Assembly (NCBI RefSeq): GCF_055900595.2
Contig: NZ_CM148325.1
Reading direction: 5' to 3' (one strand)
DNA: 64,000 nucleotides
In this document: positions 38,934 through 38,967 of the stretch, piece by piece
Layout of the letters: each line of letters starts with the position of its first letter
How positions within the stretch are numbered: position 1 is the first letter of the stretch
The notes under the pieces: model-generated
What the model saw: only the letters and a program-made list of their open reading frames with translations
What the model was told of the DNA's origin: nothing
Databases searched by the model: none
Position numbers and translations under genes: made by a program

Positions 38934-38967
38934 GCTGATCGGACTTGTTCGGCGTACAAGTGTACGC
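38934..38967. promoter_or_regulatory. fabB regulatory region: FadR-like activator site plus FabR-like palindrome
   Basis: GCTGATCGGACTTGTTC (FadR-like) immediately followed by the perfect palindrome GCGTACAAGTGTACGC, about 50-80 bp upstream of the fabB ATG. Confidence 0.55.

What the first reader, a model, noticed from the sequence alone, without database searches (positions are those of the whole stretch)
38934..38967. Adjacent FadR-like and FabR-like operators in the mnmC-fabB divergent region
GCTGATCGGACTTGTTC (FadR-like) is directly followed by the perfect palindrome GCGTACAAGTGTACGC. This matches the known dual control of fabB by FadR (activation) and FabR (repression).
Basis: partly seen in the sequence, partly recalled or inferred. 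Interest (0 to 1): 0.2.

Follow-up and report, generated by a model that had tools for sequence, protein, structure and literature searches.

The report
Known fabB promoter FadR/FabR operators
This is the already well-studied control region of the E. coli fabB gene, where an activator (FadR) site and a repressor (FabR) site sit side by side on the promoter to tune unsaturated fatty acid synthesis; it is real but ordinary.

Summary
The window is E. coli chromosome. Both strings are at the stated coordinates: GCTGATCGGACTTGTTC at 38934-38950 and GCGTACAAGTGTACGC at 38952-38967, in the 158-nt gap between divergent mnmC and fabB.

Two details are slightly off. One base (G38951) separates the strings. 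The "perfect palindrome" is two perfect 7-nt arms around a non-symmetric AG.

The stretch is base-for-base the K-12 fabB DNA used in published FadR gel shifts, where the FadR site and the 18-bp FabR palindrome GGCGTACAAGTGTACGCT are marked.

E. coli fabA carries the same module, with an identical 16-mer CTGATCGGACTTGTTC. The 41-nt unit is identical in 5425 of 5426 complete E. coli genomes. It is strongly footprinted across about 73 of 80 Enterobacterales species, while its flanks drift.

With the published start site (37 nt before the ATG), FadR overlaps a weak -35 (TTGTTC). FabR fills the 17-bp spacer and touches the -10 (TATTGT). That geometry fits activation by FadR and occlusion by FabR.

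In-window statistics alone (palindromy, consensus match) are weak. Context and conservation carry the case.

Verdict: already known, low interest.

The parts
38933..38949 (+). FadR operator, 17-mer GGCTGATCGGACTTGTT, in register with the consensus aaCTGGTCnGACC(T/A)Gtt. It spans about -46 to -30 from the published start site. The equivalent K-12 MG1655 coordinates are about 2441688-2441672 (my mapping and the ungapped alignment).
   Evidence: Sequence; consensus from PMC9329746. 10 of 12 core positions match. The site is identical to the FadR site in the K-12 fabB gel-shift probes. The 16-mer CTGATCGGACTTGTTC is identical in fabA. Mean conservation is 1.61 bits per column against 0.51 and 0.42 in the flanks.
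38945..38950 (+). Inferred -35 hexamer TTGTTC (3 of 6 to TTGACA), embedded in the right half of the FadR site.
   Evidence: It lies exactly 17 nt upstream of the inferred -10. It is essentially invariant in 76 distinct Enterobacterales sequences, including those that have lost the left half of the FadR site. The assignment is an inference from geometry and conservation. The simple promoter scan did not call it because the promoter is weak.
38951..38968 (+). FabR operator, 18-mer GGCGTACAAGTGTACGCT. The core inverted repeat is 38952-38967 (arms GCGTACA/TGTACGC, centre AG). It spans about -28 to -11, so it fills the promoter spacer and abuts the -10. The K-12 equivalent is about 2441670-2441653.
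   Evidence: It is marked as the FabR palindrome in PMC4537474 Table 2. It fits the core ACAnnTGTnnnnT from Salmonella ChIP. Mean conservation is 1.80 bits. The centre dinucleotide is free (AG 43, AC 26, TC 6, GG 2). The mirror positions 38954 (G/T) and 38965 (C/A) vary independently.
38968..38973 (+). Inferred -10 hexamer TATTGT. Its first T is the last base of the FabR 18-mer.
   Evidence: T38968, A38969 and T38973 are invariant in 76 of 76 sequences, while the middle positions vary (TATTGT, TAAAGT, TATCTT, TAGAGT, TATAAT). This is the TANNNT pattern of -10 elements. It lies 5-6 nt upstream of the published start site.
38979..38979 (+). [quoted passage not shown]
   Evidence: PMC7083825 reports RACE mapping that it says is consistent with Campbell & Cronan 2001. 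The coordinate is transferred to the window from ATG 39016. It was not measured here.
39016..40236 (+). fabB coding sequence (beta-ketoacyl-ACP synthase I, 406 aa), the regulated gene.
   Evidence: ORF; RefSeq annotation of identical DNA; 77-100% identical orthologues in 80 species.
36851..38857 (-). mnmC coding sequence, the divergent neighbour. The intergenic region is 38858-39015 (158 nt).
   Evidence: Divergent mnmC was found upstream of fabB in 73 of 80 loci, with 151-203 nt between the two start codons.
38897..38922 (.). Published CpxR-protected region of the fabB promoter (-119 to -94 from the ATG), upstream of the FadR site. It is a third input to the same promoter.
   Evidence: PMC7083825; the coordinates are transferred by me. 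The window carries C38906 where K-12 has A (GTAAG becomes GTCAG).

Best explanation
This is the regulatory core of the E. coli fabB promoter. It is a compact unit of about 41 bp in which two transcription-factor operators are interleaved with weak sigma-70 promoter elements.

FadR is a GntR-family dimer. It binds the 17-mer 38933-38949, whose right half contains the weak -35 (TTGTTC). From this position, centred near -38, it helps RNA polymerase. When long-chain acyl-CoA binds FadR, the protein leaves the DNA and activation is lost.

FabR is a TetR-family protein. It binds the dyad-symmetric 18-mer 38951-38968. That site occupies the entire 17-bp spacer and touches the -10 (TATTGT), so bound FabR competes with RNA polymerase and represses. 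Published work reports that unsaturated acyl thioesters strengthen FabR binding and saturated ones weaken it.

Together the two inputs set FabB levels, and so the ratio of unsaturated to saturated fatty acids.

Shown in the literature I read: FadR binds this exact DNA, FadR activates and FabR represses fabB, FabR occupies the promoter in vivo in Salmonella, and the start site is mapped.

Shown here: sequence identity to the characterised DNA, the same architecture at fabA, within-species invariance, a cross-species footprint, and species-wide presence of fadR and fabR.

Inferred: the -35 and -10 assignments, and the occlusion and class-II-like activation geometry.
For: Identity of the locus. 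The window region is E. coli fabB/mnmC, matched in 5425 of 5426 complete genomes with RefSeq annotation.

Identity to characterised DNA. It matches the K-12 fabB FadR/FabR probe at 55 of 56 positions, with every base of both sites identical.

The same module at fabA. fabA has AACTGATCGGACTTGTTC-AGCGTACACGTGTTAGCT-ATCCT, sharing an identical 16-mer and the same junction with a TANNNT -10.

Within-species control. The 41 nt at 38933-38973 are identical in 5425 of 5426 genomes. The adjacent 47 nt at 38886-38932 are identical in only 1581.

Cross-species footprint. Both operators sit 40-61 nt from the fabB ATG in about 73 of 80 Enterobacterales. Conservation is 1.6-1.8 bits per column against 0.4-0.5 in the flanks. 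The centre dinucleotide varies freely and the two half-sites show mirror-image degeneracy, as expected for a dimer-binding site.

Geometry. The start site is 37 nt upstream of the ATG (PMC7083825). For fabA, FabR is described as overlapping the -10 and FadR the -40 region (PMC3462791). [quoted passage not shown]

Regulators. fabR is present in 5424 and fadR in 5422 of 5426 E. coli genomes.

Regulatory roles. These are described in the papers read.
Against: Nothing contradicts it. The caveats are these:
- On sequence alone the FadR site is a weak match (3 mismatches to the 15-nt core; shuffles give about 6 sites as good per window).
- Palindromes of this size are not rare in the window.
- The consensus promoter scan calls no promoter here. 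That fits an activator-dependent promoter, but it means the -35 and -10 are my inference.
- The primary mapping papers were not held (Campbell & Cronan 2001, Zhang et al. 2002, Zhu et al. 2009, Feng & Cronan 2011, McCue et al. 2001). Footprint boundaries are therefore taken from secondary descriptions and probe tables.
- No binding was measured on this strain's DNA.
Confidence: 0.95

Rival explanations
1. The conservation reflects only core promoter elements (-35, spacer, -10) of fabB, with no dedicated operators. The resemblance to FadR and FabR motifs would then be incidental.
For: TTGTTC and TANNNT are the most invariant blocks and have the ideal 17-nt spacing. In-window motif statistics are weak.
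Against: Promoter spacers are normally free to vary, yet here the spacer is nearly invariant. Its pattern is dyad-symmetric, with a free centre and mirror-image degeneracy. The 10 nt upstream of the -35 (CTGATCGGAC) are also conserved and identical in fabA. FadR shifts this DNA in published gel shifts, and FabR occupies the promoter in vivo.
Confidence: 0.02
2. The inverted repeat acts as a nucleic-acid hairpin, either an RNA structure in a leader transcript or a DNA cruciform, rather than as a protein-binding site.
For: The region can draw a short stem of -11.1 kcal/mol.
Against: The fold is not better than shuffles (z = -1.19; 23 of 200 shuffles fold as well). The repeat lies upstream of the mapped fabB start site. 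Arm positions 38954 and 38965 change independently: 21 of 25 variant sequences change only one arm, which would break a pair, and only 4 change both. A 2-nt loop is sterically impossible.
Confidence: 0.01
3. Only the FabR operator is functional at fabB. The FadR-like half would be conserved because FabR, or RNA polymerase, needs the flanking sequence, and FadR control of fabB would be marginal or indirect.
For: FabR is reported to be the main regulator of fabB and FadR the main regulator of fabA (PMC3896788). Flanking sequence is reported to matter for FabR binding when ligand is absent (PMC4804515). TTGTTC is retained in lineages that lost the left FadR half: Rosenbergiella, Orbales and Alkalimonas. 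FadR-likeness by sequence is weak.
Against: FadR shifts the fabB probe in vitro. A fadR loss-of-function allele lowers fabB-lacZ 2- to 2.5-fold (PMC4259882; PMC4537474). The left half CTGATCGGAC lies outside the -35 and outside the FabR 18-mer, yet it is almost invariant across Enterobacterales and identical to the fabA FadR site.
Confidence: 0.02

Closest known systems
E. coli K-12 fabB promoter (FadR activator site plus FabR repressor palindrome)
   Same: It is the same locus. All bases of both operators, the inferred -35 and -10, and the distance to the ATG are identical. The 160 nt upstream of the ATG differ at only two positions.
   Different: The two strain-level SNPs lie outside the operators. 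They are C38906 (K-12 has A; inside the published CpxR-protected region) and T38931 (K-12 has A). The window's allele of this flank is shared by 1581 of 5426 genomes.
E. coli fabA promoter FadR/FabR module
   Same: The architecture is the same: a FadR 17-mer, then C, then a FabR 18-mer whose last T begins a TANNNT -10. The 16-mer CTGATCGGACTTGTTC is identical, and 30 of 36 positions of the composite match.
   Different: fabA has AA rather than GG at the first two FadR positions, which is closer to the consensus. Its FabR palindrome is less symmetric (AGCGTACACGTGTTAGCT). fabA has extra promoters, and it is reported to be governed mainly by FadR, whereas fabB is governed mainly by FabR.
Repressor-type FadR operators of the fad regulon (fadL, fadIJ, fadBA, fadD)
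   Same: They share the 17-bp consensus family. Sites for fadL (19340-19356 and 19316-19332, minus strand) and fadIJ (20025-20041) lie in this same window.
   Different: Those sites overlap the -10/+1 region and repress (PMC9329746). The fabB site overlaps the -35 and activates. The fabB site is also a poorer consensus match (CTGATC rather than CTGGTC).
FabR/DesT operators upstream of fabA or fabAB in Vibrio, Shewanella and Pseudomonas
   Same: They are TetR-family palindromes of the same type, for example Shewanella fabA AGCTTACACGTGTTCGCT. FabR-like sites were also retained here in Orbales and Alkalimonas.
   Different: Outside Enterobacterales the fabB promoter is reported to lack a FadR site (PMC4537474). 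In Pseudomonas the DesT site lies upstream of a different activator site (PMC3462791).

Membership tests
FadR operator (E. coli fad/fab regulon) | Match to the 17-bp consensus aaCTGGTCnGACC(T/A)Gtt | tested here: inconclusive
   10 of 12 core positions match, plus the final tt. With this many mismatches chance hits are expected: 1.17 per window by consensus search. The weight matrix ranks the site 10th of 127,968 positions, with about 6 equally good positions in shuffles.
FadR operator (E. coli fad/fab regulon) | Sequence identity to DNA experimentally bound by FadR | tested here: met
   The 17-mer and all neighbouring site bases are identical to the K-12 fabB probe shifted by FadR. The 16-mer is identical to the fabA FadR site.
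FadR operator (E. coli fad/fab regulon) | Position compatible with activation (overlapping the -35/-40 region rather than -10/+1) | tested here: met
   The site spans about -46 to -30 from the published start site (coordinates). For fabA the same position is described as the -40 region. The -35 assignment is an inference.
FadR operator (E. coli fad/fab regulon) | Cognate regulator gene present in the organism | tested here: met
   fadR was found in 5422 of 5426 complete E. coli genomes. fadR is not inside this window, so this is a species-level test.
FadR operator (E. coli fad/fab regulon) | Binding by FadR that is released by long-chain acyl-CoA | not testable with these tools
   This needs a gel shift or footprint with and without acyl-CoA. 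It is reported for related probes in the literature.
FabR operator (TetR-family repressor of fabA/fabB) | Dyad-symmetric site of about 18 bp with core ACAnnTGTnnnnT | tested here: met
   The pattern ACA-AG-TGT-ACGC-T is at 38956-38968, and the 7-nt arms are perfectly complementary. The core motif comes from PMC4804515.
FabR operator (TetR-family repressor of fabA/fabB) | Identity to the annotated K-12 fabB FabR palindrome | tested here: met
   GGCGTACAAGTGTACGCT is identical to the marked palindrome in PMC4537474 Table 2.
FabR operator (TetR-family repressor of fabA/fabB) | [quoted passage not shown] | tested here: met
   There is a 1-nt gap after the FadR 17-mer. The site fills the 17-nt spacer and shares T38968 with the -10. 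This agrees with the descriptions.
FabR operator (TetR-family repressor of fabA/fabB) | Phylogenetic footprint upstream of fabB orthologues (the site is said to have been identified originally by phylogenetic footprinting; McCue 2001 as cited in PMC4804515) | tested here: met
   77 of 80 loci carry the element. Conservation is 1.80 bits per column, with a free centre dinucleotide and mirror-image half-site degeneracy.
FabR operator (TetR-family repressor of fabA/fabB) | Cognate regulator present and shown to bind | tested here: inconclusive
   The fabR gene is present in 5424 of 5426 E. coli genomes. Binding itself cannot be tested here. ChIP evidence for Salmonella fabB is in PMC4804515. The E. 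coli binding papers were not held.

The most novel reading that the evidence does not exclude
The FadR and FabR sites may not be two independent operators. They may form one co-constrained unit of 36-41 bp whose exact junction (C38950/G38951) and spacing are needed for direct interplay between the two proteins and RNA polymerase. In that reading the FadR half is a lineage-specific add-on to an older promoter controlled by FabR alone.

Two observations hint at this. First, the whole unit is identical in 5425 of 5426 E. coli genomes. Second, Rosenbergiella, Orbales and Alkalimonas keep TTGTTC plus the FabR palindrome but lack the FadR left half.

The second part largely restates the published idea that the FadR regulon is contracted outside the enterics. 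Only the obligatory-interplay part would be new.
Probability: 0.15. Interest if true: 0.25.

Novelty: already known. Interest (0 to 1): 0.06.

Why it matters
Dual control of fabB by FadR and FabR is a standard example of how bacteria balance unsaturated and saturated fatty acids. Finding it here confirms that the first-stage reader can recognise real operators from raw sequence, but it adds no new biology. The cross-species footprint and the within-species invariance are clean, independent confirmations of the published sites. They also show where the FadR half has been lost.

Tried and rejected
Primary papers. I tried to read the mapping papers, but none is held: Campbell & Cronan 2001, Zhu et al. 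2009, McCue et al. 2001 and Feng & Cronan 2011. I did not look up Zhang et al. 2002 and know it only from reference lists. I relied on probe tables and descriptions in papers that are held.

Promoter scan. The consensus promoter/terminator scan of 38700-39100 found nothing. The fabB promoter is too weak for its thresholds, so the -35 and -10 were assigned from the published start site and from conservation.

Palindromy as evidence. I rejected it, because 10 exact 7+2+7 inverted repeats occur in the window.

FadR weight matrix as evidence. It is not significant on its own.

RNA hairpin reading. I rejected it (z = -1.19, and no compensatory changes).

Shared 9-mer CTTACAGAG. It sits before the ribosome-binding site of both fabA and fabB. 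It is conserved in only 19 of 80 loci, all close relatives, so I do not treat it as an element.

Transfer of annotation. Coordinates from NZ_CP027579.1 cannot be carried across the whole window. The window is not collinear with that record upstream, so fadL and fadI coordinates were re-derived from the window's own ORFs.

Full report
**What is in the sequence**

One search shows GCTGATCGGACTTGTTC at 38934-38950, a single G at 38951, and GCGTACAAGTGTACGC at 38952-38967. The stated coordinates are exact. The 16-mer is not a strictly perfect palindrome. It has two perfectly complementary 7-nt arms (GCGTACA/TGTACGC) around a central AG that is not self-complementary.

The flanking ORFs are a 406-aa ORF starting at ATG 39016 on the plus strand and a long ORF on the minus strand. 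Megablast places the region in 5425 of 5426 complete E. coli genomes. In those genomes the two genes are annotated fabB (beta-ketoacyl-ACP synthase I) and mnmC, arranged divergently. The intergenic region is 38858-39015.

**Is it more than chance?**

Judged only inside the window, each element is unimpressive.
- Exact 7+2+7 inverted repeats occur 10 times in the window, against 3.7 +/- 2.1 in shuffles.
- The FabR-type pattern with up to 2 mismatches has one hit against 0.19 expected, and 15 of 100 shuffles have at least one.
- The FadR consensus core is matched with 3 mismatches. There are four such hits in the window against 1.17 expected.
- A weight matrix built from five published fad-gene FadR sites ranks the fabB site 10th of 127,968 positions, but shuffled windows contain about six equally good positions.

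Context and comparison carry the case.

**Identity with characterised DNA**

Two papers from the Feng laboratory print the K-12 fabB gel-shift probe: TCTATTAAATGGCTGATCGGACTTGTTCGGCGTACAAGTGTACGCTATTGTGCATTC. The FadR site is marked in bold and the FabR palindrome GGCGTACAAGTGTACGCT in bold italic (PMC4259882; PMC4537474).

The window matches this probe at 55 of 56 positions. The single difference (T38931 versus A) is outside both sites. Over the 160 nt upstream of the ATG, the window differs from MG1655 at only two positions.

Wild-type FadR shifts this probe. A FadR loss-of-function allele lowers fabB-lacZ 2- to 2.5-fold. [quoted passage not shown] Direct FabR occupancy of the fabB promoter was shown by ChIP in Salmonella, with the core motif ACAnnTGTnnnnT. 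The window sequence fits that motif exactly at 38956-38968.

**The same module at fabA**

I fetched the MG1655 fabA upstream region. It reads AACTGATCGGACTTGTTC-AGCGTACACGTGTTAGCT-ATCCT. The 16-mer CTGATCGGACTTGTTC is identical to fabB, and the FabR 18-mer follows at the same junction. In both genes the last T of the FabR site is the first T of a TANNNT hexamer.

By my arithmetic, an exact 16-mer shared by chance would be expected about 3e-5 times in a window of this size.

**Within-species control**

The 41 nt at 38933-38973 (FadR site, FabR site and -10) are identical in 5425 of 5426 E. coli genomes. The immediately adjacent 47 nt at 38886-38932 are identical in only 1581 genomes, and only 1694 genomes retain even a 28-nt exact word. 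The 501-nt region as a whole is at least 99% identical in only 642 genomes. Both regulators are core genes: fabR is in 5424 and fadR in 5422 of the 5426 genomes.

**Cross-species footprint**

A FabB-based scan of one genome per species returned 80 loci. Nearly all are Enterobacterales, plus two Orbales and one Alkalimonas. The composite lies 40-61 nt upstream of the fabB ATG in about 73 of them, with at most 5 differences from the 35-nt reference.

I anchored 76 distinct sequences on the element and measured conservation per column. It is 1.61 bits for the FadR 17-mer and 1.80 bits for the FabR 18-mer. The upstream flank scores 0.51 and the downstream flank 0.42.

The pattern inside the palindrome is that of a dimer-binding site.
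- The bases GC.TACA and TGTA.GC are invariant.
- The centre dinucleotide is free (AG 43, AC 26, TC 6, GG 2).
- The mirror positions 38954 (G or T) and 38965 (C or A) show the same degeneracy but vary independently (52 G/C, 13 T/C, 8 G/A, 4 T/A).

This argues against a hairpin role, as does the unremarkable folding energy (z = -1.19).

**Promoter geometry (inferred)**

[quoted passage not shown] That places the start at about 38979.

T38968, A38969 and T38973 are invariant in 76 of 76 sequences, while the three bases between them vary (TATTGT, TAAAGT, TATCTT, TAGAGT, TATAAT). This is the signature of a -10 hexamer at 38968-38973. Exactly 17 nt upstream lies the invariant TTGTTC (38945-38950), a weak -35.

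On this reading the FadR site spans about -46 to -30 and contains the -35. The FabR site spans about -28 to -11, fills the whole spacer and touches the -10. For fabA the same layout is described as FadR over the -40 region and FabR over the -10 region. The consensus promoter scan finds nothing here, as expected for a promoter with 3/6 and 4/6 hexamers that depends on an activator.

**Mechanism**

When long-chain acyl-CoA is absent, FadR binds and helps RNA polymerase at a weak promoter. Acyl-CoA releases FadR.

FabR bound to the spacer palindrome occludes the polymerase. Its binding is reported to be strengthened by unsaturated acyl thioesters and weakened by saturated ones. FabR is reported to dominate at fabB and FadR at fabA.

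CpxR adds a third input further upstream, at -119 to -94 from the ATG.

The binding and regulatory facts come from the literature. The geometry and the occlusion and activation logic are my inference from coordinates and conservation.

**Lineage differences**

Five sequences keep TTGTTC and a FabR-type palindrome but have no recognisable FadR left half: Rosenbergiella (L044, L056), the Orbales Schmidhempelia and Gilliamella (L070, L084), and Alkalimonas (L082). Two reduced endosymbionts (L075, L076) have lost the module. This agrees with published statements that fabB lacks a FadR site in Vibrio and Shewanella.

**Verdict**

The feature is the already-known fabB promoter control region, so novelty is nil and interest is low.

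Noticed in passing
window 19340-19356 (-) and 19316-19332 (-): These are the two known FadR operators of the fadL promoter: ATCTGGTCCGACCTATA and CACTGGTCTGATTTCTA. They lie about 80-126 nt upstream of the fadL start (ORF 17890-19236, minus strand). Site 1 differs from the K-12 probe (AGCTGG...) by one base. Site 2 is identical.
   Followed up: partly
window 20025-20041: A FadR-type site, ATCAGGTCAGACCACTT, lies 27-43 nt upstream of the fadI ATG (20068). Its position fits the published fadIJ operator that overlaps the start site. The window therefore carries three FadR-controlled promoters: fadL, fadIJ and fabB.
   Followed up: partly
window 29214-29230 (+): AACTGGTCTGATTTCAA is the third-best FadR weight-matrix score in the window (17.8 bits, far above the fabB site). 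It shares a 13-mer with fadL site 2. It lies inside a 171-aa ORF (28824-29339) in the fimbrial gene cluster. It could be chance or an unrecognised intragenic FadR site.
   Followed up: no
window 38906 and 38931: These are the only two differences from K-12 in the 160 nt upstream of fabB. C38906 (K-12 has A) changes GTAAG to GTCAG in the left repeat of the published CpxR-protected region (-119 to -94 from the ATG). T38931 (K-12 has A) lies 2 nt before the FadR site. The window's version of 38886-38932 is shared exactly by 1581 of 5426 E. coli genomes.
   Followed up: partly
window 38889-38894 and 38911-38920: Two further conserved blocks lie in the intergenic region: ATCTTA and GCGCAAATTT. Read on the minus strand they give TTGCGC, a 17-nt spacer, then TAAGAT. 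This is a plausible -35/-10 pair for the divergent mnmC promoter, and it overlaps the CpxR footprint. In Yersinia, Serratia and Pectobacterium the GCAAAT block sits about 10 nt further from the FadR site.
   Followed up: no
window 39000-39008; L002 (fabA leader): The fabB and fabA leaders share the 9-mer CTTACAGAG just before or overlapping the ribosome-binding site. It is present in only 19 of 80 fabB loci, all close relatives of Escherichia. It is probably not an element in its own right.
   Followed up: yes
L068 (Edwardsiella ictaluri), L075 and L076 (insect endosymbionts): Edwardsiella has a 1-nt insertion at the FadR/FabR junction (…GACTTGCCTCGGCGTACAGG…), which changes the -35 and the spacing. 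The endosymbionts Gullanella and the Heteropsylla symbiont have largely lost both operators.
   Followed up: no
window 1-36000 versus NZ_CP027579.1: The window is 100% identical to NZ_CP027579.1 around fabB, but it is not collinear with that record upstream. For example, fadL is offset by 252 nt. The window therefore comes from a different strain with indels in the evgA-fadL segment.
   Followed up: no
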